In this document: piece after piece, positions 4,688 to 47,683 of the stretch
Numbering within the stretch: position 1 is the stretch's first letter
How the letters are laid out: each line of letters opens with the position of its first letter
Source: Bacteroidota bacterium
GTDB taxonomy: Bacteria; Bacteroidota; Ignavibacteria; UBA10030; UBA6906
Reading direction: 5' to 3'
Length of the DNA stretch: 64,000 nt
Assembly (NCBI GenBank): GCA_040756745.1
Contig: JBFLYO010000016.1
Coordinates: forward strand, 8,655-72,654
The notes under the pieces: generated by a model
Told to the model about the DNA's origin: nothing
Databases searched by the model: none
The model's input: the letters and a program-made list of their open reading frames with translations, nothing else
Program-made: the position numbers and the translations under genes

Positions 4688-4688
4688 A

Positions 4689-6512: not shown

Positions 6513-6522
6513 GTTCTTCCGA

Positions 6523-9341: not shown

Positions 9342-9349
9342 CATTCGTA

Positions 9350-10348
9350 TCACTCCACCCTCACCGAGAGCCCCCATACCTGGGCGTCTTCCTGGCTGTT
9401 GAATTCCCAATGAGCACCGCCGTCACGACTCGCAAACAGCCCACCGTTCAGCGTGCCCGCGAAGACCACGGAAGGATTTGAGGGGAGAACAACGAGCGCA
9501 TGGACGTCCCGGTTCGTGAGCCCCTCGGAACATTGCTCCCAGTGCCCCCCTCCGTCCTTCGTCCGGTAGACCCCGCCAGCGAACGTTCCCGCGTAGACGG
9601 TGTGCGGGTCGGAAGGGTCGACCGCAAGCGCATAAACGGTCCTATCGTCCAGTCCTGCGGACCGTTGGCTCCAGTTCTTCCCACCATCCTTCGACAGAAA
9701 CACGCCGCTCTCCTCCGTCCCGGCCCAGATAATCCGCTCGTTCCGAGGGTCCTTCACAAGGACGCGGATCTCTTTTCCCCGAAGTCCGGATTGGCGCCAG
9801 GATATCCCGCCGTCCGCGCTCCGGAAGACGCCGGTCTCCGCCGCAGCAAGAAGTACATTACGCTCTCCGTCAACCCACACGACGTCCGAACAGAACCGGT
9901 GCTGCACCCCCGCCGACGTAGTCCTCCAGGTCTCGCCGCCGTCGCTCGTGACGATGGCGCCGTATGCCGTCGCAGCGGCCACAAGTCTGGGATCGCGAGG
10001 GTTGACCTTGACTTTCAGGACCTCCGTGACGTCCCACCCCGTGGTGATTCGCCAGGTCACCCCGCTGTCCGTAGAGCGCAGAACTCCGTTCCCGCACGCC
10101 GACCAGATCACGCCGTTCGATCCCGCTTCGGCGTAAAACGTGCGGATGTACTCCTCCCAGCCCCGATGGACCCACGTCGTCCCATGGTCGGAGCTGACGA
10201 AGAGCCCCACAGGAGGATTGTCGCTTGCTGCGAGGCGATGCTTCCGGGAGTTGAGGACCGACATGTAGAGAGTCTCCCGTTGCGCGAGGGCAAACTCGAA
10301 CGCCATTGCACAAGAGAGAAGCAGAGTGATGAGCCTAGAGGTCCACAT
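9350..10348 (-). CDS. BNR/Asp-box repeat beta-propeller protein, paralog B2
   Basis: ORF 9350..10414 trimmed to Met23 (MWTSRLITLLLSCAMAFEFALAQ signal peptide). Asp-box repeats STDSGVTW, TSDGGETW, SADGGISW, SKDGGKNW, TKDGGGHW, SRDGGAHW. Paralog of 6523..7557. Confidence 0.6.
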   Translation of the reverse strand: MWTSRLITLLLSCAMAFEFALAQRETLYMSVLNSRKHRLAASDNPPVGLFVSSDHGTTWVHRGWEEYIRTFYAEAGSNGVIWSACGNGVLRSTDSGVTWRITTGWDVTEVLKVKVNPRDPRLVAAATAYGAIVTSDGGETWRTTSAGVQHRFCSDVVWVDGERNVLLAAAETGVFRSADGGISWRQSGLRGKEIRVLVKDPRNERIIWAGTEESGVFLSKDGGKNWSQRSAGLDDRTVYALAVDPSDPHTVYAGTFAGGVYRTKDGGGHWEQCSEGLTNRDVHALVVLPSNPSVVFAGTLNGGLFASRDGGAHWEFNSQEDAQVWGLSVRVE

Positions 10349-12698
10349 CGATCCCCCGCGTGAGAGCAGTGCCGTCAAATCTTCCCAGCGATTTCCCGTT
10401 GACAACGACCGCATAGGTAATGTTGCCCGCGCCCCCGAATTTTACCTTCACCTTCCGTGAAACATTGACGTTGTCAAAAAGCGTGACACTGATCTTCTCA
10501 CCCGACACCGTGACGTTCGTAATCCTGCAGCCGTCTATTCCCGCACCCCAGCTGCCGTTCAGGTCGACGAAGGCGTCACCGTATTTGCCGGCAATCAGGT
10601 GAATGGAGACTACAGAGCTGCCGGTTCCCCAATGCAATCCCGTCACACCGGCGAGTTGATCATATGCGCCGTGGGCATAATTCTCTGCCGTCCTTGGCGA
10701 TTGCGGCGATTCAAACAGAGAAAACATCGACCGCAGCGCCGCCACGCTCCGTTCCAAGTATTCGCGCCGCCCTGTCAGTTCGTAATATTTCATCAGCGTC
10801 ATGGCGAAGTACCCCTGCCGTGAATCGCTCCACTCCCCGTCGGTGTTCTGCACCCCGAACCCGCCGAAGAGCTGACAGGAAAGCCATTGTGGGCTCCAGA
10901 CCTGCTGATAGAGGCAGAGATAGTCAAGGATGGCGCTGCCCGCTTCACGGTATCGTTCGTCCTTCGTCAGCTCGTACAGGCTCGCGCACGCCTCCGCAGC
11001 CATTTGCATTGAGAGGGTGTTTTGCGGCGGCTGATGCGTGACTGAATCGAAGAAGTCGACCGGTTTCTGCGAACAGGAGAAAAACGTTTCAAAGTCGTAC
11101 CAGCGCTGATGCGGCTCGATCTCCGTGAGGATGTATCTCATCGCTCGCTCTGCAGCGTCACGGTAGCGAGAATCACCGGTTGCGTTTGCAAGCTCAGAGA
11201 GCAGGAGGGCTGCACCGGCAGTTTCGCCGTTCTCGTCGCGCAACACAGGGGAGGGCTCCCCGGTTGCCGGATCGTACCAGGAGGGGATTACTCCGGTGGA
11301 GAGTTGGTGAGCTATGAGAAAGCCTCCAATCTCCTTCGCATAGTCGAGCAGTTCCTTGCCCCGTTGCGGCACCCGATCGCGCCATCGCAGGACCCAGTAC
11401 GCGGTCCACGCATTGTGGAACATCGGCAGCAGCCGGCCATTCTCGATCCCGCCCCAGCCATGGTCTGCCACCCAATGGCCGCCAGAGCTGTCGACATAGA
11501 AGATCGTCGGCCGAAGCCCCGTGCCTTTGGGCGCGAGGAGTGCGAGATTCAACACACGTTCTGCACGCTGGGCAAGGGCCGCATCCCCGTGTTCGCGTCC
11601 GTACAGATGCATTCCATACGCCGTGCGAAGAGCGTTGAACCAGACGTTGAACCAGCAGTCGTTGTCGGCCGCCTTCGGCAGGTTGTTGCTCCATGCCAGC
11701 CGCGCCTGGCGCAACAGAGTTACCGGCTTCCCCTCGTACACCGTGTCCAGCGCGACGGAGGGCATGAATTCATGCCAGGCCTTGTGGATGTAAGAGGCAA
11801 ATGGTTCGGCCTGAGGATTCACGGCCTTCTGGAAGTCGGGTTCGCCGTATTTCTCCCAGAGGAACCGGACGATCTCCCGATAGGCCTTTTTCTCCGGTGC
11901 GCCGGCAGTGAGGTAGACGAAGTAGCCGTACCCCATGCCTCCCGGTGCGATGTGCAGCGTCGCGGTATCGGCGAGCTCATAGTACACGTGCGCTTTCTTC
12001 CGTTTCCAGTGCATCAACCCGAACGAGATGAGCGGTCGCCGGAGTCCTTTCACCTGCAGGTCTGCCCCCGCCCGGATCGGACGTCCTTTCCCATCGATCG
12101 AGGAGAGATCCGGAACGATAGCCCCTGCAACGGTCCCGGTCTGGAGGATGAAGGCAGGGGAGCGGAACGAGTGATCGGCAATGACCTCATCCGCCTCCGG
12201 TCTCAGTGCCGGTGTGAACACAAACTCGGGAGTGCCGGACCGAGTCTGCGGAATAAAGGAATAGGTGGAAAGGAGCGAGGAAACGTCGCGCGACGTCTGA
12301 AACTTCATCGTTACAGCCACGCGTGCAAACCGTGAGCCCTCCTCGAGCCCGATCGTCTTGATAAGCGTGTCCCCTGCGACCGTCCCGCGAAGCTCCAGGC
12401 GCCTGTGCATGGGGGCTCCGAGCGCGGAGGCCTCGGTGAACCGGATCGCCTGCTTCCCGGCGGCCGATCCGATGGTTTGCGCCGCGCGAATCTCGTTCCC
12501 CCCTTCGAACACAAATACCCAATCGCCCCCGCGCCGTGCGTACCAGCGCTCGACGTACTCCCCTTCCTCGCGGACGAGGACAACACGGACAAGCCCATTG
12601 TCGAGCCAGATGTCGCTGTCTGCCTGACGTTGCGCATCCGCGCTCGCTGCACCATCCATGGCAATCAGGAGGATGCTCGTGTACCGGAACGCGATCAC
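10335..12698 (-). CDS. large secreted protein with probable (alpha/alpha)6 glycoside-hydrolase-like region
   Basis: ORF 10335..13094 (919 aa) has a 145-aa N-terminal extension overlapping the upstream gene. The proposed start is the GTG at 12696-12698, a GTGA overlap with the upstream stop, giving M-IAFRYTSILLIAMDGAASA/DAQ, a good signal peptide. An alternative start is the ATG at 12659. The C-terminal half contains helix-pair motifs typical of six-hairpin glycosidases (AGAALLLSELANATGDSRYRDAAERAMRYI, WYDFETFF). Confidence 0.45.
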   Translation of the reverse strand: MIAFRYTSILLIAMDGAASADAQRQADSDIWLDNGLVRVVLVREEGEYVERWYARRGGDWVFVFEGGNEIRAAQTIGSAAGKQAIRFTEASALGAPMHRRLELRGTVAGDTLIKTIGLEEGSRFARVAVTMKFQTSRDVSSLLSTYSFIPQTRSGTPEFVFTPALRPEADEVIADHSFRSPAFILQTGTVAGAIVPDLSSIDGKGRPIRAGADLQVKGLRRPLISFGLMHWKRKKAHVYYELADTATLHIAPGGMGYGYFVYLTAGAPEKKAYREIVRFLWEKYGEPDFQKAVNPQAEPFASYIHKAWHEFMPSVALDTVYEGKPVTLLRQARLAWSNNLPKAADNDCWFNVWFNALRTAYGMHLYGREHGDAALAQRAERVLNLALLAPKGTGLRPTIFYVDSSGGHWVADHGWGGIENGRLLPMFHNAWTAYWVLRWRDRVPQRGKELLDYAKEIGGFLIAHQLSTGVIPSWYDPATGEPSPVLRDENGETAGAALLLSELANATGDSRYRDAAERAMRYILTEIEPHQRWYDFETFFSCSQKPVDFFDSVTHQPPQNTLSMQMAAEACASLYELTKDERYREAGSAILDYLCLYQQVWSPQWLSCQLFGGFGVQNTDGEWSDSRQGYFAMTLMKYYELTGRREYLERSVAALRSMFSLFESPQSPRTAENYAHGAYDQLAGVTGLHWGTGSSVVSIHLIAGKYGDAFVDLNGSWGAGIDGCRITNVTVSGEKISVTLFDNVNVSRKVKVKFGGAGNITYAVVVNGKSLGRFDGTALTRGIDVDL

Positions 12699-14314
12699 CA
12701 CCGTACCCGCTTCAGGATCTTCGCCATATTGCGGCCGAACATGTCTTTCTTCTCTTCCGTCGTGCAATGCGTGTACGCCATCCATCCGAACTGCGGGATC
12801 GGGTCGCGCATCGGTTGATCGGTCCCGAACAGCACCCGCTGCGCCCCGACATGCTTCACCATGTATTCGATGACACCGAGCGTCACGGCCGTCAGCGTGA
12901 TCTCCAGGGCGATATTCGGAAACTTGAGCGCCGCCTCGATTCCCTGGCGCGCGGTGGCATATGACGAGCCGCAGTGGGCGATGATGAACATGATCTCCGG
13001 GTAGCGGGGTGCGATCTCGTTGATCTCCTGCGTGAAATTCGGGGAGGGATGCATGAGCGCATATGCCCTCATCCTGTTCCCGTATTCGAACCACAGGGCC
13101 CAGGCCGGATCATTGTAGGGGATGCCGGTGCGCGGATTGTACGGCTTGATCCCTCCCATCCGGTAGGTCTGGTGCACTTTCTTCAGTTCGCGCGGCCAGT
13201 CCTTCACGTATTGCGGCTGCAATGTCGCATATCCCTCATAGTAGCGGGGAAAATCCTTCATCGCCTTCCTGACGATCTCATTGCCGTCCTCGTAATCAGC
13301 CCAGACGCCGATCCATGCACTGATACACTGCTTATCGATGCCCATCGTGCGCGCCCGTTCCACCATGCTCGCCGCGTCCGAGTGCGGCTGATGCATGAAC
13401 CCCGTCCCGACCGCCCCATCGTGCGAAATGTGCGCATGCGCGTCGATCACCAGCATGTCGCGCAGCGGCCTTCCCTGCTTCGCGAGCGCGAGGATGGGCT
13501 CCTCCTTCTTGTGCGGATAGGGAGGCGGCAGCTTTTCGATCCGGAGCAGACGGGCGAGGTTTCCCCCGGCGATCATTGCCTTGTCGTCGTCGTTCAATGT
13601 GCAGTAATCGACGAACGCTTTTGCCGCCCCCGGGGATTTTTCGAGCGCCCCGGTCCCGAAGAGGATCCTGTCGGCGCCGAACCAGCCGGCAAACACCTCC
13701 ATCGCGCGGTTCCCCTGGTGGCTGGAGAGCTCCAGATACAGGTTCCGATGCTTCGTCATGAGCGTGTGCAGAAACCGGGTGGAATCCCAGCGCGAACCCT
13801 GGAGGAGGACGCGCAGGTCGGGGTGCCGTGTGAGGACGGCATCCAGATCCGAGAGGAGTACCTGGTTCACCGGCTCCATCACTTCGACGCCGTACATAAA
13901 CCCGCCGTCCACCAGCAGCAGGATCTCTTCCCGCTCGAGCTCGGAGAGCAGATCGCCGCAGGTGTCCTCGTTGAAGAAATAATGATGCGTCTTTGGATAC
14001 ATCTTGACGGCGCGGATCTGATGCGAACGCATTTCCTCAACGACCTCCCGGGGGGGCGGCATTTCGCCTGTATGGTGGGGCATGACTGACCAGACACCCA
14101 ACAGCCGCGGGCTCTTCTTCAGCTCATGAACGAGCTTCCGGTTGCCGTACGCCGGGTCGTACTCCTTGCCAAGCCCGTGAGTGATGAGCGCGCCCTGGAT
14201 CCCGCACCAGGCCATCTCATCGAGCAACACCTCGGTTTCCCAGGGTGTCTCGACATCCTTCGGCCCCCGGCGGCCCACCATTGCGTTGCAGTCGATGTAC
14301 ACTCTCTCGGGCAT
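12695..14314 (-). CDS. tandem amidohydrolase-2 (metal-dependent TIM-barrel hydrolase) domain protein
   Basis: ORF 12695..14473 trimmed to Met54 (MPERVYIDCNAMVG), 4 nt after the upstream stop. The second half carries the VIDAHAHIS amidohydrolase_2 metal-binding motif. The first half has the analogous IDCNAMVG start, so it is an internally duplicated domain. Confidence 0.6.
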   Translation of the reverse strand: MPERVYIDCNAMVGRRGPKDVETPWETEVLLDEMAWCGIQGALITHGLGKEYDPAYGNRKLVHELKKSPRLLGVWSVMPHHTGEMPPPREVVEEMRSHQIRAVKMYPKTHHYFFNEDTCGDLLSELEREEILLLVDGGFMYGVEVMEPVNQVLLSDLDAVLTRHPDLRVLLQGSRWDSTRFLHTLMTKHRNLYLELSSHQGNRAMEVFAGWFGADRILFGTGALEKSPGAAKAFVDYCTLNDDDKAMIAGGNLARLLRIEKLPPPYPHKKEEPILALAKQGRPLRDMLVIDAHAHISHDGAVGTGFMHQPHSDAASMVERARTMGIDKQCISAWIGVWADYEDGNEIVRKAMKDFPRYYEGYATLQPQYVKDWPRELKKVHQTYRMGGIKPYNPRTGIPYNDPAWALWFEYGNRMRAYALMHPSPNFTQEINEIAPRYPEIMFIIAHCGSSYATARQGIEAALKFPNIALEITLTAVTLGVIEYMVKHVGAQRVLFGTDQPMRDPIPQFGWMAYTHCTTEEKKDMFGRNMAKILKRVRW

Positions 14315-14318
14315 GAGC

Positions 14319-15575
14319 TCACCACCAGAATGGTTTGACCGAGTCGCGCTCTTTCGGTTCAGCTTCGAGGGCACGCTGCAATGCCCTGCGGGATTTTTCG
14401 AGGGCTTCGTCGATGTCGGCCGGTTTGTGCGAATAGGAAATGAACCAGCGCGGGTTGGCAAATATGCCCTCACGATACAGCTCGCGGTGCCAGAGAAACT
14501 CCAGGCGTGCGTGGTAGTCGGGATCGCGGTGAACGAACTTCAGAAACGGGGCAGCAGGGAGTCCCGCGGCGTGTCCCTCGACGCCCAGATCCTTCACCAT
14601 CATGTCGAACCCCGCCATCAATCGCTCCCCCATGGCCCGCAGATGGTCGTGCACGTTCTCACGCATCATGATATCGAGCGTGGCCGCCGCGGCAGCAAGT
14701 GATAGGGTCTCCCCCGCATATGTTGTGGTCATCCTGAACGAGTTAAGCGTCTCCATCAACTGACGCTTCCCGCAATAGGCGGAGAGAGGGAACCCGTTGG
14801 CCAGTGCCTTGGCGTAGCTGACGAGATCGGCATCGACGCCGAAGAACTCCTGTGCCCCGCCCCGTGCAAGCCGGAAGCCCGTCAGCACTTCGTCAAGAAT
14901 AAGAACGATGCCCTCTTTCTGTGTGAGGGCGCGAAGAGTCCTGATGTACGTACCGCTCGTGTCCTCATTGAAATCGTACGGGACGGAAATGACGCAGGCA
15001 AGACGGTCGGCGTATTGCTTGATGAGACGTTCCGCGGCGTCGCAGTCTCCCCACGGAATGGATTTCACGTAGTCGCGCAGGACTTCGGGCACGCCGTTGC
15101 CGGGACTCCCCTCCGCCGAAAACCAGTCGGGATAGCCGTGGTACCCGCTGATCAGCATCATGTCACGCTTCGACCATGCGCGCGCGATTCTCACGTTGCA
15201 CATGTTTGCATCTTCGCCCGTCTTCATGAACCGGACCATCTCCGCGTTGGGGACGATCCGGTTGATCCGCTTTGCAACCTCCAGCTCGATCGGGCTTGCC
15301 ATGCTGAAGAGCACCCCCTTTGCAAGCTGCTCACGCACCGCGTTGTCCACTTCGTCGTAGCAGTAGCCCAGTGTCACCGGCCCGAGGGCCAGGCGGAAAT
15401 CGACGTACTCCTTCCCTTCCATGTCCCAGAGCCGGCACCCCTTCCCGCGGACGATGAACTTCGGCATCGTCTCCTGGAAGAACGGGTACGGACGTTTGGC
15501 GTTGGTCTGAGTTCCCCACGGGATCAGGCGGAGCGCTTCCTCAAAGTGGCGGTCGGACGGCTTCATGGTCTTCAA
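14319..15575 (-). CDS. class III (glutamate-1-semialdehyde aminomutase-like) PLP-dependent aminotransferase
   Basis: 418 aa. LILDEVLTGFRLARGGAQEFFGV and the surrounding fold are typical of the HemL/class-III aminotransferase family. ATG overlaps the upstream stop (ATGA). Confidence 0.8.
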   Translation of the reverse strand: MKTMKPSDRHFEEALRLIPWGTQTNAKRPYPFFQETMPKFIVRGKGCRLWDMEGKEYVDFRLALGPVTLGYCYDEVDNAVREQLAKGVLFSMASPIELEVAKRINRIVPNAEMVRFMKTGEDANMCNVRIARAWSKRDMMLISGYHGYPDWFSAEGSPGNGVPEVLRDYVKSIPWGDCDAAERLIKQYADRLACVISVPYDFNEDTSGTYIRTLRALTQKEGIVLILDEVLTGFRLARGGAQEFFGVDADLVSYAKALANGFPLSAYCGKRQLMETLNSFRMTTTYAGETLSLAAAAATLDIMMRENVHDHLRAMGERLMAGFDMMVKDLGVEGHAAGLPAAPFLKFVHRDPDYHARLEFLWHRELYREGIFANPRWFISYSHKPADIDEALEKSRRALQRALEAEPKERDSVKPFWW

Positions 15576-17590
15576 CCGATGACGATCTTCGGAACAGGTG
15601 TCCGGGGATCAATTGAGACGTCGATCTGCCGACCGTTATGGCTCCCCTTCACATTCCATGTCTCCTTCTCCCGCGTCACGGAAAGGGTTCCATGCTCGCC
15701 TCCCGTCTTCTGCGCGGTGCACACCGTGAGGATCATGTGCTCATTTGCCGGAGCGGATTCCGCTTCGGCATAGGGATGAATCCCCTTGTCGGGCGGCAGG
15801 TTATGCGAGGCCGTGCGAACCGTGACGGCCTGCGATCCCGAGATTGCCGCCTGGAGATTTGCAAGGGGGCGTTGAACCCCGAACGAAGCCCCCTCGGCGT
15901 TCACCGTTCCTTTGCCGTCTGAATTGTCAACCTGGAACCGGAGCTGGACCGGCAGCGGGTCTCCCTGTAGCTGCACACGGTCGAAGAGGAGCAGCACATC
16001 GGGCTTCAGGAACACGAGAGTTCTCTGAACCAGCGCGATGTTGTTGTTGACCAGACGATACGCGTCGGTGGCATCGCTCGTTACCGTCATCGCCTTCGTC
16101 GAATGCGAATAGTCCAGAATGCGCGCCTCGGCCCACGATGCGTTGGTCCCTTCGTGGCCGTTGTGATACTGGTGTCCTTTGCCATCGATGAGTACCGCCG
16201 TATGCGCCGACGTGAGCCGGAGGATCCAGTGTGGGTCGGTATACGCGTACGCAGCCCTGTACGGGTCGTGGAACAGCCGTTCGCCGTATGCCTTGAAGAT
16301 GATGCTGTTCCGATCGGCATGTTCGTGGTTCGCGGGTCCGCCGCTGCGCAGCGCGACGAGGCCGTCGGTGGGCTTCCAGCCGCTGCGGGAGACCACCCAG
16401 TCATCGGAGAATCGCACGTCCAACTGATCGGGGCCGGGCTTGCGCACCGGGAGGTCCGGGTCGAGCCAGATAATAGAGAAGTGGCTGGTGAGCTGACCGA
16501 CCTCCGTCGCGACGTACTGGGCGATGGAGTCTTTGAACCGCCTGGCGACCCATGCCGCAACTGCGACATCCCCCATGTTCCAGGCATCACCGAAGTTCAC
16601 GCAATCGTTTGGACGATCCGGCAGCGGCATGGCCATGCTGAGGCCGTACCGGACGGTGCCGGGATAATTGATGATGGTGCTCAGATCGGTCCTCTGCGTG
16701 CGCCGCACGGCTTCGACCAGCAGCGTGAGGTGCGACGCGGTATATCCCCAGTACCCCACCCCTTCGTCATAGGCACCATCCGGACCGAACATCGGCGCGA
16801 ACGCCTTCGCGCTCTGGACTGCCATATCGATCCATCGCTCGGCCTGGGGGTGCTTGCCACGGAGGAGACAGCCGGCCAGTCCGAGGCCGGCAATCGGAAT
16901 GACCTTGAGGTTGGTTGCATTCAGGATGAACGGCCACCGGCTCAGGTCGAAGCGGTACGGATAATCATCTTCCGGGTCAAACCCCCATCCGCGCACCCTG
17001 TCGGGATATTTCATGCCATACAGGGTGCGGTAGCAGGCCGGGGCTCCTTTCTCTGCGATCTGCTTCTCGATCTCGGCGGCGGTCTCTGTGTTCAGGAGCG
17101 GGCCGAGCCATTCGCGGGCGCATGACATGGCGATCGTCGCCTCGGGTGCGCGCTGAAGCCCGATCACCTCCTCTCCCCCCTCAAGGAAGTAGTCCCACTT
17201 GGGATATTCGAGAATCTTGTTGGCGGCTGCGAGCGCGACCTCTCCCTGCTTCCGGTCTCCCGTCACCGCAAAGACGAACGATGTGCGTTCCAGGATCTGG
17301 CGCACCTGAAGCATGTCCTTGACGTGATTATTGAACCGGACGCTCTCGCGCAGGAACTTTGCATCGGCATCGAGGTTGGCGTTGACCAGGGACTGCCAGT
17401 AGGGGACGACGCGAGGATGCCTGACCGCCCTGCGAATCCTCGGGAGGTCCGAGGCATCGAAGAGCAGGCCCTTGACGCGGGGCGAGGGGTCTTCAGTCGG
17501 GATCAGCGCAGCACGTGCCCCGGAGGGGATGAGTGAGACGCCCGCAGCGATCCCGGTGGCGCGGAGGAATTCTCGTCTGGAAGGGGGCAT
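15572..17590 (-). CDS. heparinase II/III-like polysaccharide lyase family protein (Tat-exported)
   Basis: 672 aa. Twin-arginine signal MPPSRREFLRATGIAAGVSLIPSGARA. Helix-rich N-terminal toroid-like half. C-terminal half has the H-x-H-x-D motif (ANHEHADRNSIIF) typical of the Hepar_II_III domain. Confidence 0.6.
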   Translation of the reverse strand: MPPSRREFLRATGIAAGVSLIPSGARAALIPTEDPSPRVKGLLFDASDLPRIRRAVRHPRVVPYWQSLVNANLDADAKFLRESVRFNNHVKDMLQVRQILERTSFVFAVTGDRKQGEVALAAANKILEYPKWDYFLEGGEEVIGLQRAPEATIAMSCAREWLGPLLNTETAAEIEKQIAEKGAPACYRTLYGMKYPDRVRGWGFDPEDDYPYRFDLSRWPFILNATNLKVIPIAGLGLAGCLLRGKHPQAERWIDMAVQSAKAFAPMFGPDGAYDEGVGYWGYTASHLTLLVEAVRRTQRTDLSTIINYPGTVRYGLSMAMPLPDRPNDCVNFGDAWNMGDVAVAAWVARRFKDSIAQYVATEVGQLTSHFSIIWLDPDLPVRKPGPDQLDVRFSDDWVVSRSGWKPTDGLVALRSGGPANHEHADRNSIIFKAYGERLFHDPYRAAYAYTDPHWILRLTSAHTAVLIDGKGHQYHNGHEGTNASWAEARILDYSHSTKAMTVTSDATDAYRLVNNNIALVQRTLVFLKPDVLLLFDRVQLQGDPLPVQLRFQVDNSDGKGTVNAEGASFGVQRPLANLQAAISGSQAVTVRTASHNLPPDKGIHPYAEAESAPANEHMILTVCTAQKTGGEHGTLSVTREKETWNVKGSHNGRQIDVSIDPRTPVPKIVIG

Positions 17591-17591
17591 G

Positions 17592-18602
17592 TTAATTGAG
17601 AAGCGATTGAACGTCGATGACGGCCGCGCGTGCGACCGATTGCGTCATGGCTTCGATGACGGCCAGGGCACGGAGGCCTTCTTCTCCCCCCGTTTCGGGC
17701 GCGCGGCCGGTCAGCACACACTCTCCGAACTCGCGCATTTGCAGGATATAGCTCTCCGCCCCCTCCGTGCTGAAATCTTCGTCCGTCGTTCCGGTCGTAA
17801 CGCCTCCTTCGACCCGTTCGAGCCGGAGCGACGTTGGGCCACAGTGCAGAAGTCCCCGGGTGCCGTAGATCCTGAGGAAGTAGGCATCCGGCGACACATA
17901 GTACGAGGAGAGCACCACGGGGATGCCTGAGTCGAGCATCAACAGGGCGGCAGTCGCATCAAACACACCGCCGGGCATGGCAACATTCGAGGCAAGACAA
18001 CTCACGCGCCGGACCGGTGAAAGCAGATAGGCGATTGTGTCGACAAAGTGAATCCCCAGCTGCATCATGGGAAGCAACGGACATCGAGCCGGATCAGCCT
18101 TCCAGGTCGGGAGTCCCGGCAGGATGCCGGCAGGGCGGGAGACGTTCGCCTCCACACCAACATATGTGCCGAGCGTACCCTGATCAAGGAGTTCCTTTGC
18201 GCGGCGGAACACTTTGCGCCGCCGGGTGTTGTGGCCCACCATCAGGGTCATCCTGGCCTCATGCATCGCCGCGATCATCGCACGCCCTTCAGCTATGGTG
18301 TTGCCGATCGGCTTTTCCACGAACACATGCTTCCCCACGCGCGCCGCAGCGATGACTTCGTCGCAGTGAAGGTGATTCGGCGTCACCAGCGCCACAGCAT
18401 CAATCCCCGGGTCATTGACGAGATCATCGAACCCTGTGGCAATCCGAGCACCTGTGGCGTTTGCTGCGGCCGAACATGCCGCAGCGTCGGTATCGAAGAG
18501 TGAGACCAGGCTGAGGTTCCCCGCGGCCTGTATGGCATTGAGGATGGTCGCCCCGTGATTGGCGACCCCCACCTGGCCGATGCGGACGCGAGTTGCAGTC
18601 AT
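17592..18602 (-). CDS. Gfo/Idh/MocA family NAD(P)-dependent oxidoreductase
   Basis: 336 aa. N-terminal Rossmann IGQVGVANHG and the EKP motif (VFVEKPIG) are diagnostic of the family. Confidence 0.85.
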   Translation of the reverse strand: MTATRVRIGQVGVANHGATILNAIQAAGNLSLVSLFDTDAAACSAAANATGARIATGFDDLVNDPGIDAVALVTPNHLHCDEVIAAARVGKHVFVEKPIGNTIAEGRAMIAAMHEARMTLMVGHNTRRRKVFRRAKELLDQGTLGTYVGVEANVSRPAGILPGLPTWKADPARCPLLPMMQLGIHFVDTIAYLLSPVRRVSCLASNVAMPGGVFDATAALLMLDSGIPVVLSSYYVSPDAYFLRIYGTRGLLHCGPTSLRLERVEGGVTTGTTDEDFSTEGAESYILQMREFGECVLTGRAPETGGEEGLRALAVIEAMTQSVARAAVIDVQSLLN

Positions 18603-19669
18603 CGGAGGGCATTCCGCGTGCTGAATTCACTAATCTGCGCTTCGCCGTCGAGCACGCCAATCTGCACGTGGAAATCAGTCTGCTCCGCCGGCTCAATGTA
18701 CCGGAGCGTCCCCGCGGCGCGCTCATCGGCCCGTCCCTTCACGCCACAGTTTGCCGGCTCCACGCCGACGACGTATGTTCCCTCACCCATCATCTTCCAT
18801 TCAACGAGGCGCGGGAGCTCCTTCATACGGAACCGGACGGCGAGGGCCAGTTTCAGTACCGGATTACGAAGGAGCACTGTCCCGTACCCGTCCCTACCCG
18901 GGTCAAGATCGTGGTAAAACACCTGCTCACGGTACCCGGCGACGGGGCCGGAAAACCTCCGCGCATCCGCCAGTCCGCGACGCGCATCATCGTCGCGCGG
19001 GACAGTCCTCCCTGCCGGCAGCAGGAGGTCCGTACCTTCGTCAACAAGCGGCCAACCGGCGTTGATGTGATACAACATCATGAGCGGCGTTCGGGCGGTG
19101 CCTTCGTTGATCACTTCATCCCGAAGATCGATCCACGATTCTCCGAGCCGCGTCGTGATCGTTCGGCGGAGGAGGAGGTTTTCACCGAACGTCGTCGCCT
19201 CCCGCATGGATCCGTTCAGCGCCATAACGCAGTCGTCCCCTTCCCAGGTCTCCGACGAACCGACCGCGAACGCGGGGAGATGGGAGAGTCGCCCGTGAAG
19301 TCCCAGTTCCGTCCCTTCGTCGACGCACGGTGCCCCGAGGTATGTCATGCCGCAGCCGGTCATCAGTCCGCCGGGGAATGTCCGCAGCCACGCGCCCCCG
19401 CGTGGGTCAAAATACGATGGATGCACGTCCCCTGCCGCTGACCGCCATGCGAGCGGCACACCGCAGTACTCCGCGGCGCTTATATCCATCCCTCTGTCGA
19501 CCGACACCTGGAATCTCAATCCCGAGCCTGTCCGCACGTCGGCGATGCGCACTCCTGCCTCAGCGCCGTCGGCGAGCGTCATCATGCGGATCCCGGCAAT
19601 CTGTGAGACGCCGCCAATGCGACTCATCAGGTCCCGCCGGCTCATCGTTCTGCCAAACATCGTCGTCAT
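18599..19669 (-). CDS. DUF4432-like / galactose-mutarotase-like protein
   Basis: ORF 18599..19840 trimmed to Met58 (MTTMFGRTMSRRDL), giving an ATGA overlap with the upstream stop. 356 aa, beta-rich. The family assignment is from memory of DUF4432 proteins in sugar loci and is low confidence. Confidence 0.35.
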   Translation of the reverse strand: MTTMFGRTMSRRDLMSRIGGVSQIAGIRMMTLADGAEAGVRIADVRTGSGLRFQVSVDRGMDISAAEYCGVPLAWRSAAGDVHPSYFDPRGGAWLRTFPGGLMTGCGMTYLGAPCVDEGTELGLHGRLSHLPAFAVGSSETWEGDDCVMALNGSMREATTFGENLLLRRTITTRLGESWIDLRDEVINEGTARTPLMMLYHINAGWPLVDEGTDLLLPAGRTVPRDDDARRGLADARRFSGPVAGYREQVFYHDLDPGRDGYGTVLLRNPVLKLALAVRFRMKELPRLVEWKMMGEGTYVVGVEPANCGVKGRADERAAGTLRYIEPAEQTDFHVQIGVLDGEAQISEFSTRNALR

Positions 19670-20493
19670 GGCACGTACTCCCGTTCCATCAGGAGTCGGA
19701 GCGTGCGCACATTGCGCTCGGATTGTTCCACGAGTGGAAGGCAGTGTGTTTCGATCGTGATATGGGGAACAATGCGATCCTTGAGCAGCGCGCGCACCTG
19801 CCCCGCCCAGTCGATGATCCCCTCGCCGATCGGGACGCACTTGATCAGCGCCCCTTCCTTCGTGTCTTTTGCGTGCACGTTGACGATCACGGGCTTGATC
19901 GCTTCGTACCCTTCGGGATAGGGCCGTTCATCCGTGCCGGTCGCGTTGCATGGATCCCAGTTCGCCCCCAGCGCGGGGGAACCCACTTCTTCGATCAACC
20001 GCCGGGTATTCACTCCTGTGTCCGCGTGGAACCCCGGCTCGTTCTCGACGGCAATCTTCATCCCTGCCCGCTGTGCCGTGGCGGCGGCTCTCCGCAGGAG
20101 GTCAACCGCCTCCGAGCGTCGCTCGGGCGGTTCCCCTTCCTCCCGGCGGAAGCCGAACACGATGATCAACTTCGCCCCGCACGACGTTGCCAGGTTGACC
20201 GTGCGCGAAAGTGTGTCGGTGACCTCGTGTTCCAGTTCATCCCGCTTCCCCAGCGGGTGTTTGAAGATGCCCGGTGAGAGCGCGGTGATCGAGACCCCCT
20301 CGGCAGCGGTGGTGCGTACCACGGCTTCCCACTCTTCCGTGTCAACGTCGGGGACTCTTCCCGATGTCAGGCACCGGATTTCGTACCGGCGGATCCCCCA
20401 GTCCAGCCCGTGGCGAAGGGCCGTGCGAAAATCCTGATCGATCTCATCGCTCACGATCCCCAGCGGAAGCGGTCGAGGTCCTCCGCTGCTCAT
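19666..20493 (-). CDS. sugar phosphate isomerase/epimerase (xylose-isomerase-like TIM barrel) family protein
   Basis: 275 aa. Conserved metal-ligand pattern of the AP-endonuclease-2/xylose-isomerase-like TIM barrel family (IAVENEPG, HAKD, ETH). Confidence 0.7.
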   Translation of the reverse strand: MSSGGPRPLPLGIVSDEIDQDFRTALRHGLDWGIRRYEIRCLTSGRVPDVDTEEWEAVVRTTAAEGVSITALSPGIFKHPLGKRDELEHEVTDTLSRTVNLATSCGAKLIIVFGFRREEGEPPERRSEAVDLLRRAAATAQRAGMKIAVENEPGFHADTGVNTRRLIEEVGSPALGANWDPCNATGTDERPYPEGYEAIKPVIVNVHAKDTKEGALIKCVPIGEGIIDWAGQVRALLKDRIVPHITIETHCLPLVEQSERNVRTLRLLMEREYVP

Positions 20494-21269
20494 GATGCCG
20501 CTTCCAGGTAGCCGATGGCATGGGAAATTACCGCGGCTTCCTTCTTCAGGATATCGATCAGCCGGCTGATGACCTCGGCCTTCCGTTTCCGTTCGGACTG
20601 GATTGCAGTCATCAATGCGGCGGCCACCTTCCCCCGGTGGTCGCGGATCGGAACGGAGACCGCACAGAGGTCGGGCTTGTATTCGGCGTCGGCGATCGCG
20701 TAGCCTTGGCGGTTCACCTCCTTCAACCGCTTTTTCAGCCGTAAAACACTCGTGATGGTCTTCGGGGTAAACTTCTTCAGGCCGCTCCGCTCGATGATGC
20801 GATCGAGCTGCTCGGGGGGCACATCGGCGATCAGCACCTGCCCGGATGCCGTCGCGTGAACGGGCGAGCGCTGCCCGAGGCGGGCGACCATCGACCAGAT
20901 CTCCGGCGTGTCGGCACGGTCGATGATAATGACCTCTGAGCTGTCCAGGATGGCAAGGTAATAGCTCTCGCGCGTTTCATGGGCCATGCGCACCAGGTGC
21001 GGATGAACCACGGTTTTCAGATCGATCTTCTCCAGCGCCGCATTCCCCCAGTCGAGCAGCTTCATTCCCAGTCGGAAGATCTTCCTGTCGTGGTCCTGGA
21101 TGACGATCGCATGCTGTTCCAGTGCGGCGAGGATGCGGAACAGGGAGCTCTTGGGGATGGCAGTCTGCCGGGAGATCTCGGCCAGCGAAAAGCCGGTGTG
21201 CGAGGCGGCGAGAATCTCGATCACCTGCACCGTTCGGTGAATGGCGGGGACGGAGTATTCTCTGTGCAT
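20490..21269 (-). CDS. IclR-family transcriptional regulator
   Basis: 259 aa. N-terminal wHTH (SLAEISRQTAIPKSSLFRILAALE) and a C-terminal IclR effector-binding domain. Its stop overlaps the next gene's ATG (ATGA), so it appears to head the 21-kb operon. Confidence 0.85.
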   Translation of the reverse strand: MHREYSVPAIHRTVQVIEILAASHTGFSLAEISRQTAIPKSSLFRILAALEQHAIVIQDHDRKIFRLGMKLLDWGNAALEKIDLKTVVHPHLVRMAHETRESYYLAILDSSEVIIIDRADTPEIWSMVARLGQRSPVHATASGQVLIADVPPEQLDRIIERSGLKKFTPKTITSVLRLKKRLKEVNRQGYAIADAEYKPDLCAVSVPIRDHRGKVAAALMTAIQSERKRKAEVISRLIDILKKEAAVISHAIGYLEAAS

Positions 21270-21282: not shown

Positions 21283-21307
21283 GACTAATAAAACATTGTT
21301 TTATTAG
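21283..21307. promoter_or_regulatory. AT-rich perfect inverted repeat ACTAATAAAACA-t-TGTTTTATTAGT immediately upstream of the IclR gene start
   Basis: A 12-bp perfect palindrome arm seen directly in the 124-bp spacer between rhaI and the IclR gene. It is strongly AT-rich in a 65% GC context. Candidate operator or promoter element. Confidence 0.4.
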
Positions 21308-21393
21308 TGATGAATGAGTATACGAAAAAAGTGCTCCCCCCACAAGAGGCGTGCAGATGATTCTGTCCCCGTAACATATATGATTATAGCACG

Positions 21394-24155: not shown

Positions 24156-24167
24156 GCATGCACCTCC

Positions 24168-26228: not shown

Positions 26229-26278
26229 TGTTGCGTCCTTGCGTTGTCACGCAAAAAAGATGCCGCAGAACAGCCGTG

Positions 26279-36579: not shown

Positions 36580-36583
36580 GGCT

Positions 36584-47317: not shown

Positions 47318-47683
47318 ATCGTTCCTCCTTCGATCATGAATTGAGTAGGGTGGGTGGATGGATTGACGTGATGTAACGGATGCATCGTACACTCGTGCGG
47401 TCAGCGCGGCATGGCTTCCCGTCGGGGGAGACCGCATGCTGCGGTGACGGAATGCGAACAGGAATGAGAACTGAGTCTGGAACCTGTGCGAACGCCCGGG
47501 CAGGAGATATTCACCCGGCGTTCCACTAATAGAATGGTGTTTTATCACCGGAAAAATAGCACATTGCCGATGTTTTGTCAAGCGCTTTCTTTCCCCGGAG
47601 CGTTGCGGATGAACCGGGCATTCTCTACTTTACTCCCGACGCGCTGTGAAACCCGATTCCACTATTGAAATGAGTGAGGCAGG

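What the first reader, a model, noticed from the sequence alone, without database searches (positions are those of the whole stretch)
12695..21269. IclR-led, translationally coupled mega-operon combining lyase, aminotransferase, amidohydrolase, oxidoreductase and mannosidase functions
From the IclR gene (21269) down to the GH38/ferritin-like genes (about position 1), 15 minus-strand genes are packed with ATGA/GTGA start-stop overlaps or gaps under 15 nt. This applies to 10 of 14 junctions. The regulator itself overlaps the first enzyme gene, implying an autoregulated single transcript of about 21 kb. The enzyme mix is unusual for a glycan locus. It has a class III (HemL-like) aminotransferase, an internally duplicated amidohydrolase-2 and a Gfo/Idh/MocA dehydrogenase. 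It also has a xylose-isomerase-like TIM barrel, a heparinase II/III-like lyase and a PfkB kinase. This suggests catabolism of an aminated or oxidised sugar released by the lyase or mannosidase, a route that is not one of the textbook pathways.
Basis: partly seen in the sequence, partly recalled or inferred. Interest (0 to 1): 0.55.

Follow-up and report, generated by a model that had tools for sequence, protein, structure and literature searches.

The report
Conserved KdgR-type uronate-glycan breakdown operon
This is a real, tightly packed operon of at least 15 genes, led by its own repressor gene and conserved across several uncultured bacterial phyla. It most likely breaks down an acidic (uronic-acid) glycan, and it contains an aminotransferase + double-amidohydrolase pair whose chemistry nobody has described.

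Summary
From the IclR gene (21269) to the window start, 15 minus-strand genes have no gap above 37 nt. Eight junctions can be 4-nt start/stop overlaps.

New evidence supports an IclR-led, self-regulated unit:
- A conserved promoter (TTGTGG-17-TATACT) and a perfect 25-bp palindrome lie 15-39 nt upstream of iclR.
- Both recur upstream of about 19 IclR homologues. The palindrome resembles the KdgR box.
- A second box lies at the TonB-receptor promoter at 47.5 kb.

Gene order is conserved. In 81 related loci, the aminotransferase sits directly upstream of the amidohydrolase in 54 of 73 testable cases. Most other junctions are conserved in more than 80% of loci.

The heparinase-like protein keeps the Asn/Tyr/His lyase triad in all 41 homologues. 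The two unannotated paralogues fold like polysaccharide lyases.

The substrate is therefore most likely a uronate-containing glycan. Rhamnose genes and mannosidases lie alongside.

The amidohydrolase is only distantly related (about 15% identity) to decarboxylases, hydratases and lactonases. The aminotransferase is HemL-like.

Verdict: a new variant of a known kind (KdgR-type uronate catabolon) with an uncharacterised core module. Interest is moderate.

The parts
21317..21345 (-). Candidate sigma-70-type promoter of the operon: -35 TTGTGG (21345-21340), 17-nt spacer, -10 TATACT (21322-21317)
   Evidence: Sequence read. The CTTG(ACA) and (G)TATACT blocks are conserved at the same position upstream of IclR homologues in about 19 loci. 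The generic scan missed it because the -35 matches only 3 of 6 bases.
21284..21308 (.). Operator candidate O1: perfect 25-bp palindrome ACTAATAAAACA-N-TGTTTTATTAGT, 15-39 nt upstream of the iclR ATG
   Evidence: 0.02 matches expected by chance. Conserved as TAAT.AAAC....TT..ATT.G in relatives. Resembles the KdgR box AAATGAAACAnTGTTTCATTT (PMC5559549) and the IclR group-2 motif (PMC8222616).
20490..21269 (-). IclR-family regulator, KdgR-like in its operator type
   Evidence: HTH_IclR + IclR_C. KdgR model scores 142.6 bits against a cutoff of 275.
19666..20493 (-). Xylose-isomerase-like TIM-barrel protein (sugar or keto-sugar isomerase/epimerase type), cytoplasmic. ATGA overlap with iclR.
   Evidence: AP_endonuc_2, 8.4e-31. 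Only a remote UlaE match in the PDB. Adjacent to IclR in 20 of 20 loci.
18599..19669 (-). DUF4432, aldose-1-epimerase-like protein, cytoplasmic
   Evidence: PF14486, 1.2e-103. PDB 3TY1 'hypothetical aldose 1-epimerase', 1e-25.
17592..18602 (-). Gfo/Idh/MocA NAD(P) oxidoreductase, cytoplasmic
   Evidence: nearest models IolG and xylose 1-dehydrogenase, all below cutoff.
15572..17590 (-). Exported heparinase II/III-like polysaccharide lyase (twin-arginine-type signal MPPSRREFLRATG...)
   Evidence: Hepar_II_III_C. PDB matches to PL35 and PL15 lyases. N227/Y280/H422 align with the catalytic Asn/Tyr/His and are invariant in 41 homologues.
14319..15575 (-). Class-III (HemL-like) PLP aminotransferase, cytoplasmic
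   Evidence: Aminotran_3. Nearest NCBIfam models are PRK06209, GntE and HemL, all below cutoff. K256, D228 and R28 are invariant in 62 homologues; K256 aligns with the GK lysine and R28 with the arginine of the SPVR motif of GSA aminomutase 2E7U.
12695..14314 (-). Two-barrel Amidohydro_2 protein. The C-terminal barrel has D291-x-H293-x-H295 and D499 invariant (H447 invariant in the 30-sequence alignment). The N-terminal barrel lacks the HxH motif.
   Evidence: (AF2 pLDDT 89). Only generic fold relatives at about 15% identity. At least 330 clusters of 63-81% identity.
10335..12698 (-). Exported 787-aa protein with an (alpha/alpha)6-like C-terminal half; weak GH76/GH47/GH88 similarity
   Evidence: all below thresholds. 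Follows the amidohydrolase in 37 of 37 loci.
9350..10348 (-). Exported BNR/Sortilin-type beta-propeller (module 1)
   Evidence: NCBIfam F510_1955 'glycosylhydrolase' family, 139 bits against a cutoff of 175.
7554..9353 (-). Exported unannotated protein, paralogue of 4689-6512 (44% identity); lyase-like fold inferred from that paralogue
   Evidence: Follows the BNR gene in 29 of 29 loci.
6523..7557 (-). Exported BNR/Sortilin-type beta-propeller (module 2)
4689..6512 (-). Exported unannotated 607-aa protein, helical N-domain plus beta-sandwich. The best fold matches are all polysaccharide lyases (PL12, PL35, PL33, PL15, PL8, PL17).
   Evidence: No Pfam or PDB sequence match. More than 2000 clusters, all 'hypothetical'. 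AF2 pLDDT 79.5. Foldseek E 3e-4 to 1e-3, TM 0.30-0.38. Invariant N123-H124, Y184 and H340.
3725..4687 (-). PfkB-family sugar or keto-deoxy-sugar-acid kinase, cytoplasmic
   Evidence: IolC, ribokinase and KdgK models, all below cutoff.
1035..3728 (-). GH38 alpha-mannosidase, no signal peptide
   Evidence: Nearest NCBIfam model is mannosylglycerate hydrolase, 556 bits against a cutoff of 1138.
1..997 (-). DUF455/ferritin-like protein, cut by the window edge. The operon may continue beyond it.
47526..47581 (-). Second promoter (TTGACA-17-TATTTT, 47581-47553) with operator-like box O2 (TGATAAAACACCATTCTATTAG, 47547-47526). It lies upstream of the TonB-dependent receptor gene and within the divergent intergenic region.

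Best explanation
The block is the main catabolic operon of a large PUL-like locus in an uncultured Bacteroidota/Ignavibacteriota-type bacterium. The locus spans essentially the whole window. The operon is led and probably repressed by its own KdgR-like IclR regulator.

Shown by sequence:
- A conserved promoter with a palindromic KdgR-type box over the likely transcription start site. A second box lies at the TonB-receptor promoter.
- An uninterrupted run of 15 genes.
- Conserved gene order across phyla.
- A lyase with an intact catalytic triad.

Inferred mechanism:
1. An acidic, uronate-containing glycan is taken up through the TonB-dependent receptor. The neighbouring genes suggest it also carries rhamnose and mannose.
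2. It is depolymerised outside the cytoplasm by beta-elimination. The enzymes are the heparinase-like lyase and probably the two lyase-fold paralogues, each paired with a BNR propeller, plus the (alpha/alpha)6-like protein.
3. Small unsaturated products enter through the two Na+/solute symporters.
4. In the cytoplasm, the DUF4432, TIM-barrel and Gfo proteins open, isomerise and oxidise or reduce the 4-deoxy-5-keto-uronate. PfkB phosphorylates the resulting keto-deoxy acid or hexose. GH38 removes mannose.
5. A keto-deoxy sugar acid relieves IclR repression.

The aminotransferase-amidohydrolase pair acts on the imported lyase product. I think the most likely scheme is that the metal-dependent C-terminal barrel of the amidohydrolase carries out a hydration, hydrolysis or decarboxylation on the unsaturated or oxo-acid part. 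The HemL-like enzyme would then exchange an amino and an oxo group on a carboxylate-bearing aldehyde or amine. The exact substrates are not determined.
For: - Tight junctions.
- Promoter and operator. KdgR-box resemblance.
- Synteny in 81 loci from Ignavibacteriota/Bacteroidota, KSB1, Acidobacteriota and Rhodothermales MAGs. An independent gene caller gives the same order in a relative. Spacing is conserved.
- Lyase triad conserved.
- Lyase-like fold of the 607-aa paralogue.
- The amidohydrolase is accompanied by a heparinase- or alginate-lyase-like protein and a transporter even in the simplest loci checked, including L001, L064 and L020 and L032. In 6 of 81 loci tblastn found no other window homologue; for L032 and its four sister loci (ORF-listed) the neighbouring large exported protein was shown for L032 to carry lyase domains, and the sixth (L046) was not examined.
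- Catalytic residues of the aminotransferase and the C-terminal amidohydrolase barrel are invariant.
- Sugar-acid enzymes accompany the pair in relatives: LarA and OYE-type reductase, DHDPS and enolase-superfamily proteins, FAH-family protein.
- Rhamnose genes pass curated cutoffs. GH38, GH47 and a rhamnosidase-like protein lie in the same window.
Against: - There are no expression data. Internal promoters cannot be excluded, because the consensus scans used would also have missed the true promoter.
- The regulator scores well below the KdgR equivalog cutoff, and its effector is unknown.
- No canonical kduI, kduD or eda gene was seen among the ORFs scanned.
- The lyase-fold match of the 607-aa protein is weak (TM 0.30-0.38).
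- No characterised enzyme is close to the amidohydrolase (about 15% identity). The roles given to it, to DUF4432, to the TIM-barrel protein and to Gfo are inferences from fold and context.
- About 19% of loci with enough flank lack a detectable aminotransferase.
Confidence: 0.62

Rival explanations
1. The lyase acts on a glycosaminoglycan-like hexosamine-uronate polymer. The amidohydrolase removes an N-acyl group or cleaves the unsaturated uronyl residue. The HemL-like enzyme then removes the amino group from the free 2-amino sugar (an alpha-amino aldehyde, like HemL's own substrate). Gfo, the TIM-barrel protein and PfkB channel the resulting keto-sugar into glycolysis.
For: - The lyase's closest solved relatives are GAG lyases (PL35) and PL15 exolyases.
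- HemL-type enzymes handle alpha-amino aldehydes.
- Other nitrogen-related enzymes sit in the same super-locus or beside the pair elsewhere: creatininase-family amidase, PvdN-like periplasmic PLP enzyme, S9 peptidases, CN-hydrolase.
Against: - Amidohydro_2 relatives found here are decarboxylases, a hydratase and lactonases, not deacetylases.
- No nagA/nagB-type genes or clear hexosaminidase in the window.
- The conserved R28 suggests a carboxylated substrate.
- Nothing shows that the glycan contains an amino sugar.
Confidence: 0.22
2. An oxidative, transaminating end to uronate catabolism. The 4-deoxy-5-keto-uronate from the lyases is oxidised at C1 by Gfo to 5-keto-4-deoxy-glucarate. The amidohydrolase dehydrates and decarboxylates it to 2,5-dioxopentanoate (alpha-ketoglutarate semialdehyde). 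The HemL-like enzyme converts that to a glutamate semialdehyde or 5-amino-2-oxopentanoate. It would replace the usual aldehyde dehydrogenase.
For: - HemL-like fold with the HemL-aligned arginine invariant; from general knowledge that arginine binds the substrate carboxylate in HemL. The proposed substrate is a C5 oxo-acid isosteric with HemL's.
- Amidohydro_2 relatives are decarboxylases and hydratases of unsaturated or oxo di-acids.
- In distant loci the pair sits next to families known (from general knowledge of the oxidative uronate and pentose pathways) to make 2,5-dioxopentanoate: DHDPS-family plus enolase-superfamily in L074 and FAH-family in L020.
- A KdgR-type box implies a keto-deoxy-acid effector.
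Against: - No precedent that I know of or found in the literature.
- Gfo is absent from several minimal loci.
- No sequence-level link between the amidohydrolase and KdgD-type activity.
- Entirely inferential.
Confidence: 0.13
3. The run is not one functional operon. It is a string of co-directional but independently transcribed units: regulator plus cytoplasmic enzymes, then exported enzymes, then kinase plus mannosidase. They would be packed tightly only because the genome is compact.
For: - No RNA data.
- In relatives, extra genes are inserted between the TIM-barrel gene and DUF4432 with gaps of 144 nt or more. The DUF4432-Gfo pair is absent in some, which shows modularity.
- The promoter scan is insensitive.
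Against: - No gap above 37 nt in the window.
- Up to eight 4-nt overlaps.
- Junction tightness is conserved at 50-75% protein identity.
- Adjacency is conserved in more than 80% of loci for most pairs.
- A conserved promoter and operator were found only upstream of iclR and the TonB-receptor gene within the window.
Confidence: 0.15

Closest known systems
KdgR regulon of pectin/uronate catabolism (Dickeya, Yersinia and other gamma-proteobacteria)
   Same: An IclR-family repressor and an AT-rich palindromic box with the same half-site architecture: 8 of 10 bases per half-site, 1-nt centre (some relatives have a perfect AATGAAACA half-site). It controls exported uronate lyases, transport and a PfkB-type kinase.
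   Different: - The regulator is far below the KdgR equivalog score (142.6 vs 275 bits).
- It leads and overlaps its own operon.
- The host is from a different phylum.
- No kduI, kduD, kdgA or kdgF was recognised.
- The operon carries a HemL-like aminotransferase, a double amidohydrolase, DUF4432 and Gfo instead.
Bacteroidota polysaccharide utilization loci (SusC/SusD-type PULs) for glycosaminoglycans or alginate
   Same: A TonB-dependent receptor with a CarboxypepD_reg domain, many exported glycan-cleaving enzymes on one strand, cytoplasmic finishing enzymes, and a local regulator.
   Different: - No SusD-family hit for the gene next to the receptor (842 aa, no Pfam).
- Regulation is by IclR rather than a hybrid two-component or SusR/ECF system.
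- Inner-membrane uptake is by paired Na+/solute symporters.
PL35 / PL15 / PL12 / PL17 (alpha/alpha)-toroid plus beta-sandwich polysaccharide lyases
   Same: The heparinase-like protein shares the Hepar_II_III_C domain and the Asn/Tyr/His triad. The 607-aa and 599-aa paralogues share the overall fold in the model of the 607-aa one.
   Different: Sequence identity is very low. Matches cover about 200 residues at E 1e-14 to 1e-7 for the lyase, and none at sequence level for the paralogues. The CAZy family and the substrate are unknown.
Glutamate-1-semialdehyde 2,1-aminomutase (HemL) and HemL-like aldehyde/amine transaminases (PRK06209, GntE, FumI)
   Same: Fold, PLP lysine, aspartate and the N-terminal arginine. 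Full-length alignment at E 1e-55 to 1e-87.
   Different: Below every curated cutoff. The HemL 'GGVxSPVR' motif reads 'WGTQTNAKR'. The context is a glycan catabolic operon rather than tetrapyrrole synthesis.
Amidohydro_2 (COG2159) enzymes: gamma-resorcylate/LigW decarboxylases, LigJ hydratase, LigI-type lactonases
   Same: TIM-barrel fold. The C-terminal barrel keeps the DxHxH ... H ... D metal and catalytic pattern.
   Different: - Tandem two-barrel architecture with a degenerate N-terminal barrel.
- About 15% identity to any solved member.
- Always paired with a class-III aminotransferase and/or a uronate-lyase-like gene.

Membership tests
IclR family / KdgR-type repressor | HTH_IclR plus IclR_C effector domain | tested here: met
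   PF09339 at 1e-10, PF01614 at 3.6e-40.
IclR family / KdgR-type repressor | AT-rich palindromic 'group 2' box (TGRAACA-N1-2-TGTTYCA; KdgR box AAATGAAACAnTGTTTCATTT) at the promoters it controls | tested here: met
   25-bp perfect palindrome at 21284-21308 and a second site at 47526-47547. Conserved in relatives. Motifs taken from PMC5559549 and PMC8222616. 8 of 10 bases match per half-site.
IclR family / KdgR-type repressor | Sequence membership in the KdgR equivalog | tested here: not met
   NF011671 scores 142.6 bits against a cutoff of 275. The PcaR/PobR subfamily model scores higher, 180 bits against a cutoff of 285.
IclR family / KdgR-type repressor | Release from DNA by KDG or a related keto-deoxy acid | not testable with these tools
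   Needs EMSA or a thermal-shift assay.
Heparinase II/III-like polysaccharide lyases (PL12/15/17/21/35 fold) | Hepar_II_III_C domain | tested here: met
   PF07940, 6.8e-11.
Heparinase II/III-like polysaccharide lyases (PL12/15/17/21/35 fold) | Catalytic Asn neutraliser, Tyr and His | tested here: met
   Y280 and H422 align in the printed alignments to Tyr241 and His397 of 8KHW and to Y365 and H531 of 3A0O; N227 corresponds to Asn187 by extending the 8KHW alignment three residues upstream of its printed start (my own offset count). Residues taken from PMC12088678. Invariant in 41 of 41 homologues.
Heparinase II/III-like polysaccharide lyases (PL12/15/17/21/35 fold) | Beta-elimination activity on a uronate-containing polymer; CAZy family assignment | not testable with these tools
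   No dbCAN/CAZy library is available, and the activity needs an assay.
New lyase-fold family (607-aa and 599-aa paralogues) | (alpha/alpha)-toroid plus antiparallel beta-sandwich fold | tested here: inconclusive
   AF2 pLDDT 79.5. The four matches at E <= 1e-3 and 20 of the top 22 are polysaccharide lyases, but E is only 3e-4 to 2e-2 and TM 0.30-0.38. Candidate N123-H124, Y184 and H340 are invariant, but they were not structurally superposed.
Class-III aminotransferase / HemL | Aminotran_3 fold with PLP lysine and aspartate | tested here: met
   K256 and D228 align with the GK lysine and DE aspartate of 2E7U (that these are the PLP ligands is from general knowledge of HemL) and are invariant in 62 homologues.
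Class-III aminotransferase / HemL | Equivalog-level score to HemL (true GSA aminomutase) | tested here: not met
   TIGR00713 scores 236 bits against a cutoff of 527. PRK06209 scores 293 against 486.
Amidohydro_2 | TIM barrel with HxH (strand 1), His and Asp (strand 8) | tested here: met
   Met for the C-terminal barrel only: D291, H293, H295, H447 and D499 are invariant in the 30-sequence alignment, and D291, H293 and H295 also in 82 homologues. The N-terminal barrel lacks HxH.
Amidohydro_2 | Assignment to a characterised activity (decarboxylase, hydratase, lactonase or amidase) | tested here: inconclusive
   Profile-vs-PDB E >= 1.9e-5. Foldseek hits at 13-17% identity spread over all these activities.
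Canonical SusC/SusD PUL | SusD-family lipoprotein next to the SusC-like receptor | tested here: not met
   The receptor at 44300-47581 has TonB_dep_Rec_b-barrel and CarboxypepD_reg domains. The neighbouring 842-aa protein has no Pfam hit.
L-rhamnose catabolism (rhizobial type), neighbouring genes | RhaI and RhaD-ADH equivalog scores | tested here: met
   TIGR02629 scores 668 bits against a cutoff of 647. TIGR02632 scores 881 against 568.

The most novel reading that the evidence does not exclude
The HemL-like aminotransferase and the two-barrel amidohydrolase form a previously unrecognised cytoplasmic route for the products of uronate lyases. It is conserved across at least four phyla. One possibility is a decarboxylating, transaminating end of uronate catabolism via 2,5-dioxopentanoate. 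The other is a non-glycoside-hydrolase way of cleaving and deaminating unsaturated uronyl-hexosamine units. In addition, the 607-aa and 599-aa paralogues, each paired with a BNR propeller, would found a new polysaccharide-lyase family with more than 2000 known sequence clusters.
Probability: 0.3. Interest if true: 0.75.

Novelty: new variant of a known kind. Interest (0 to 1): 0.5.

Why it matters
The cluster is widespread in uncultured Ignavibacteriota/Bacteroidota, KSB1, Acidobacteriota and Rhodothermales from peat, fen, groundwater, soil and sediment. The amidohydrolase family has at least 330 sequence clusters and the unannotated lyase-fold family more than 2000. It is therefore likely to be a common but unstudied route for turning over an acidic glycan in these carbon-rich habitats.

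It gives several concrete, testable handles:
- a predicted operator and repressor pair
- a lyase with an intact active site
- two candidate new lyase-fold proteins
- a conserved two-enzyme module whose chemistry is not explained by textbook uronate or amino-sugar pathways

If the module defines a new metabolic link between uronates and amino compounds, annotation of thousands of metagenomic genes would change.

Tried and rejected
- Exact-sequence look-ups of three window proteins found nothing. The source contig could not be retrieved. Only the NCBI names 'MAG... [Bacteroidota bacterium]' came.
- Generic promoter and terminator scans were at chance level and missed the real promoter.
- My first operator pattern used the wrong spacer and found nothing. 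It was corrected.
- Sequence and profile searches of the amidohydrolase against the PDB, and a Foldseek search of a good model, gave no specific function.
- The 607-aa protein has no PDB match at sequence level.
- Literature searches for DUF4432, for the enzyme combination, for Ignavibacteria loci of this kind and for aminotransferases linked to unsaturated uronates found nothing relevant.
- Rfam and tRNA scans of the window were empty.
- All-against-all clustering of locus ORFs was polluted by antisense shadow ORFs. I used only families of 300 aa or more.
- I considered and set aside a true HemL (tetrapyrrole) role for the aminotransferase: it scores below cutoff and the context is catabolic.
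- I set aside inositol catabolism as the main theme: the IolG and IolC models are only the nearest of many sub-threshold hits.
- I set aside a glycosyl-inositol-phosphoceramide or GPI substrate. It was prompted by one ceramidase-like neighbour in L064, but it rests on a single locus.

Full report
**Observation.** The ORF listing and a start-codon survey show 15 consecutive minus-strand genes from 21269 to the window start. Pfam and NCBIfam identify them as:
- IclR regulator
- xylose-isomerase-like TIM barrel (XI)
- DUF4432 (aldose-epimerase-like; PDB 3TY1)
- Gfo/Idh/MocA oxidoreductase
- heparinase II/III-like protein
- class-III aminotransferase
- a protein with two Amidohydro_2 barrels
- a 787-aa (alpha/alpha)6-like protein
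- a BNR propeller
- an unannotated 599-aa protein
- a second BNR propeller
- an unannotated 607-aa protein
- PfkB kinase
- GH38 mannosidase
- a DUF455/ferritin-like protein, cut by the window edge

Junctions are -4, -4, -4, +1, -4/+5, +4, -4/+35, -14/+28, -4/+5, -4/+5, +10, +1, -4 and +37 nt. The ATGA overlap of iclR with the next gene is real. By contrast, the next 15 junctions upstream on the same strand include five gaps of 124-271 nt. One of them is the 124-nt gap just upstream of iclR.

**Regulatory anatomy.** That 124-nt gap contains four elements:
- a weak terminator-like hairpin after the rhamnose isomerase gene
- a -35 TTGTGG, a 17-nt spacer and a -10 TATACT
- eight bases further on, a perfect 25-bp palindrome ACTAATAAAACA-N-TGTTTTATTAGT (21284-21308)
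- the palindrome ends 15 nt before the iclR ATG

Upstream regions of about 19 IclR homologues (53-87% identity) align with conserved CTTG(ACA), (G)TATACT and TAAT.AAAC....TT..ATT.G blocks at the same positions. Many of them have a textbook TTGACA-17-TATACT.

A degenerate form of the box matches only two places in the 64-kb window, where 0.02 are expected by chance. One is this site. The other is 47526-47547, six bases downstream of a TTGACA-17-TATTTT promoter that faces the TonB-dependent receptor gene.

The box has the architecture of the Dickeya KdgR box AAATGAAACAnTGTTTCATTT (PMC5559549) and of the IclR 'group 2' motif (PMC8222616). It matches 8 of 10 bases per half-site, and some relatives carry a perfect AATGAAACA half-site. 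The protein itself is below the KdgR equivalog cutoff. It works like KdgR but is not shown to be KdgR. Self-regulation and co-regulation of the receptor operon are sequence-level inferences.

**Conservation.** The amidohydrolase has a 100% identical NCBI entry from a 'Bacteroidota bacterium' MAG and at least 330 related clusters at 63-81% identity. A scan of one genome per species returned 80 loci. They come from Ignavibacteriota/Bacteroidota, KSB1 (some labelled 'Deferribacteres'), Acidobacteriota and Rhodothermales MAGs.

tblastn of the window proteins against these loci shows the order IclR-XI-(743-aa protein)-DUF4432-Gfo-lyase-aminotransferase-amidohydrolase-(alpha/alpha)6-BNR-599aa-BNR-607aa-PfkB-GH38 recurring at 50-75% protein identity. 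Adjacency counts are:

| Gene pair | Adjacent / loci with both |
|---|---|
| IclR-XI | 20/20 |
| DUF4432-Gfo | 14/14 |
| Gfo-lyase | 19/23 |
| lyase-aminotransferase | 36/42 |
| aminotransferase-amidohydrolase | 60/62 |
| amidohydrolase-(alpha/alpha)6 | 37/37 |
| BNR-599aa | 29/29 |
| BNR-607aa | 25/25 |

The aminotransferase lies directly upstream of the amidohydrolase in 54 of 73 loci with enough flank. Tight spacing is also conserved: the median IclR-XI and DUF4432-Gfo distance is -4. An independent gene call on a 1.9-Mb contig gives SSF-SSF-LarA-IclR-XI-lyase-aminotransferase-amidohydrolase-793aa-BNR with -4, -4, +2 and 0 junctions.

In distant lineages (42-52% identity) the recurring set shrinks. 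It becomes a heparinase- or alginate-lyase-like protein, a transporter (SSF or MFS), the amidohydrolase, usually the aminotransferase, and often Gfo or the TIM-barrel protein.

**The proteins.**
- *Lyase.* It has a twin-arginine-type signal. N227, Y280 and H422 correspond to the catalytic Asn/Tyr/His of PL35 GAGase VII and of PL15 Atu3025 (the Asn by extending the printed alignment three residues). They are invariant in 41 homologues down to 36% identity.
- *Unannotated paralogues.* The 607-aa and 599-aa proteins are 44% identical and exported. They have no Pfam or PDB sequence match. They belong to a family of more than 2000 clusters, all called hypothetical. An AlphaFold model (pLDDT 79.5) has a helical N-domain and a beta-sandwich. 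Its four best PDB fold matches, and 20 of the top 22, are polysaccharide lyases of families PL12, PL35, PL33, PL15, PL8 and PL17. The scores are weak, however (E 3e-4 to 2e-2, TM 0.30-0.38). Invariant N123-H124, Y184 and H340 are candidate catalytic residues but remain untested.
- *Aminotransferase.* It is HemL-like, full length, at E 1e-55 to 1e-87 against HemL, PRK06209 and GntE models, but below every cutoff. The PLP lysine, the aspartate and the arginine at HemL's substrate-carboxylate position are invariant in 62 homologues.
- *Amidohydrolase.* The model (pLDDT 89) is two TIM-barrel-like domains. Only the C-terminal one keeps DxHxH...H...D. Its nearest solved relatives are gamma-resorcylate and LigW decarboxylases, LigJ hydratase, LigI-like lactonases and uncharacterised structural-genomics proteins, all at about 15% identity. 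'Amidohydrolase' therefore says nothing about amide cleavage here.
- *Location.* From N-terminal sequences read, the lyase, the (alpha/alpha)6-like protein, both BNR propellers and both lyase-fold paralogues are exported. XI, DUF4432, Gfo, the aminotransferase, the amidohydrolase, PfkB and GH38 are cytoplasmic.

**Wider locus.** The same strand upstream carries:
- genuine L-rhamnose catabolic genes; RhaI and RhaD-ADH pass curated cutoffs
- two Na+/solute symporters
- a signal-bearing PvdN-like class-V PLP enzyme
- three unannotated proteins (525-743 aa, no Pfam hit)
- two PhyH dioxygenases
- a MetE-like protein
- a PorV/FadL-like protein, an 842-aa protein and the TonB-dependent receptor

The divergent plus-strand side encodes another TIM-barrel protein, another Gfo, a creatininase-family amidase, a rhamnosidase-like protein, GH47, an S9 peptidase and a URO-D-like protein.

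Many of these families reappear beside the aminotransferase-amidohydrolase pair in distant genomes. Relatives add LarA, an OYE-type flavoprotein, DHDPS-family, enolase-superfamily and FAH-family enzymes. These are families typical of sugar-acid metabolism. The finding is therefore one operon of a locus that fills essentially the whole window.

**Mechanism.**
- *Shown by sequence:* the operon layout, the conserved promoter and operator, the conserved synteny, an intact lyase active site, and intact aminotransferase and C-terminal-barrel active sites.
- *Inferred:* an acidic uronate-containing glycan, probably also carrying rhamnose and mannose, is cleaved outside the cytoplasm by beta-elimination. 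Small unsaturated products are imported by the symporters. DUF4432, XI and Gfo convert the 4-deoxy-5-keto-uronate. PfkB phosphorylates the product. A keto-deoxy acid releases the repressor.
- *The aminotransferase-amidohydrolase pair:* it acts on the lyase product. Two explicit chemistries remain open. The other is conversion of 5-keto-4-deoxy-glucarate via 2,5-dioxopentanoate into an amino acid semialdehyde. Neither can be tested here.

**Comparison and novelty.** The system works like a KdgR-controlled uronate catabolon and like a Bacteroidota PUL, but it fails membership tests for both. It is below the KdgR cutoff, and no SusD-family protein was detected. It replaces the textbook KduI/KduD steps with families not assigned to this role. 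Four literature searches found no description of the cluster. I rate it a new variant of a known kind. It has a genuinely uncharacterised conserved core and a candidate new lyase-fold family.

**Limits.**
- There are no expression or biochemical data.
- Gene calls in related loci are tblastn-based.
- The fold match of the 607-aa protein is weak.
- The source genome outside the window was not available, so the absence of canonical uronate genes is unknown.

Noticed in passing
window 47526-47581 (minus strand): A second KdgR-like box (TGATAAAACACCATTCTATTAG) lies six bases downstream of a TTGACA-17-TATTTT promoter. It sits in the divergent region between the TonB-dependent receptor gene (ATG about 47316) and a plus-strand TIM-barrel/Gfo/creatininase/GH47/S9-peptidase gene string. 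This suggests one regulon spanning the window.
   Followed up: partly
window 21394-30117 (minus strand): A complete rhizobial-type L-rhamnose catabolic set lies directly upstream of iclR, behind two paralogous Na+/solute symporters. It comprises RhaI and the bifunctional aldolase/dehydrogenase (both above curated cutoffs) and an FGGY kinase. Only a few related loci carry the rhamnose genes at this position; most have the symporters, with or without LarA.
   Followed up: partly
window 30114-31400 (minus strand): A class-V PLP enzyme with an N-terminal signal-like sequence. It aligns full-length to the periplasmic pyoverdine-tailoring enzyme PvdN (4.7e-29, below cutoff). Homologues sit next to the aminotransferase-amidohydrolase pair in KSB1-type loci. 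A periplasmic PLP enzyme in a glycan locus is unusual.
   Followed up: partly
window 4689-6512 and 7554-9353; alignment A2: The two unannotated paralogues belong to a family of more than 2000 sequence clusters with no Pfam domain. The predicted fold is lyase-like, and each gene is always preceded by a BNR beta-propeller gene. They may form a two-protein enzyme and a new lyase family.
   Followed up: partly
window 31621-33852, 34124-35701, 37350-39518, 41761-44289: Four sizeable proteins (525-842 aa) have no Pfam hit. The 743-aa one has a twin-arginine-type signal and, in most relatives, sits between the TIM-barrel gene and DUF4432. The 722-aa one recurs next to the pair in Rhodothermales and KSB1-type loci. 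By eye, the 842-aa one next to the receptor ends in a sequence that looks like a type IX secretion sorting domain.
   Followed up: no
window 35836-37372 and 39533-40567: Two tandem PhyH-family dioxygenases and a short MetE-like (Meth_synt_2) protein lie in the same strand run. PhyH-like and MetE-like genes also follow the pair in loci L068 and L078. This hints at oxidative or methyl-group chemistry on the substrate.
   Followed up: no
L032, L034, L041, L052, L061 (about 6000-13100 in each): In these Ignavibacteriota-type loci the amidohydrolase (66% identity) lacks the aminotransferase. Instead it lies between a divergent exported protein of about 1240-1340 aa and an MFS transporter. In L032, the one scanned with Pfam, that protein has Alginate_lyase, Hepar_II_III_C and CBM9 domains. 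An SSF symporter is nearby in L032, L034 and L052, and an enolase-superfamily protein in L032.
   Followed up: partly
L064:20340-21602; L080:7439-9958; L001:11824-12291: Amide-bond enzymes turn up beside the amidohydrolase in distant lineages. These are a neutral-ceramidase-like protein (L064), an S9 peptidase inserted between the aminotransferase and the amidohydrolase (L080), and a creatininase-family protein (L001, and also window 50393-51157).
   Followed up: no
L024, L028, L029, L035, L038, L047, L049, L054-L056 (about 3000-5600); L010, L014, L017, L018, L036, L039, L082: Relatives carry an OYE-type flavin oxidoreductase between the 743-aa-protein gene and Gfo, and a LarA-type 2-hydroxyacid racemase/epimerase just upstream of iclR. 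Neither was found among the window ORFs scanned or by clustering over window 1-48000.
   Followed up: partly
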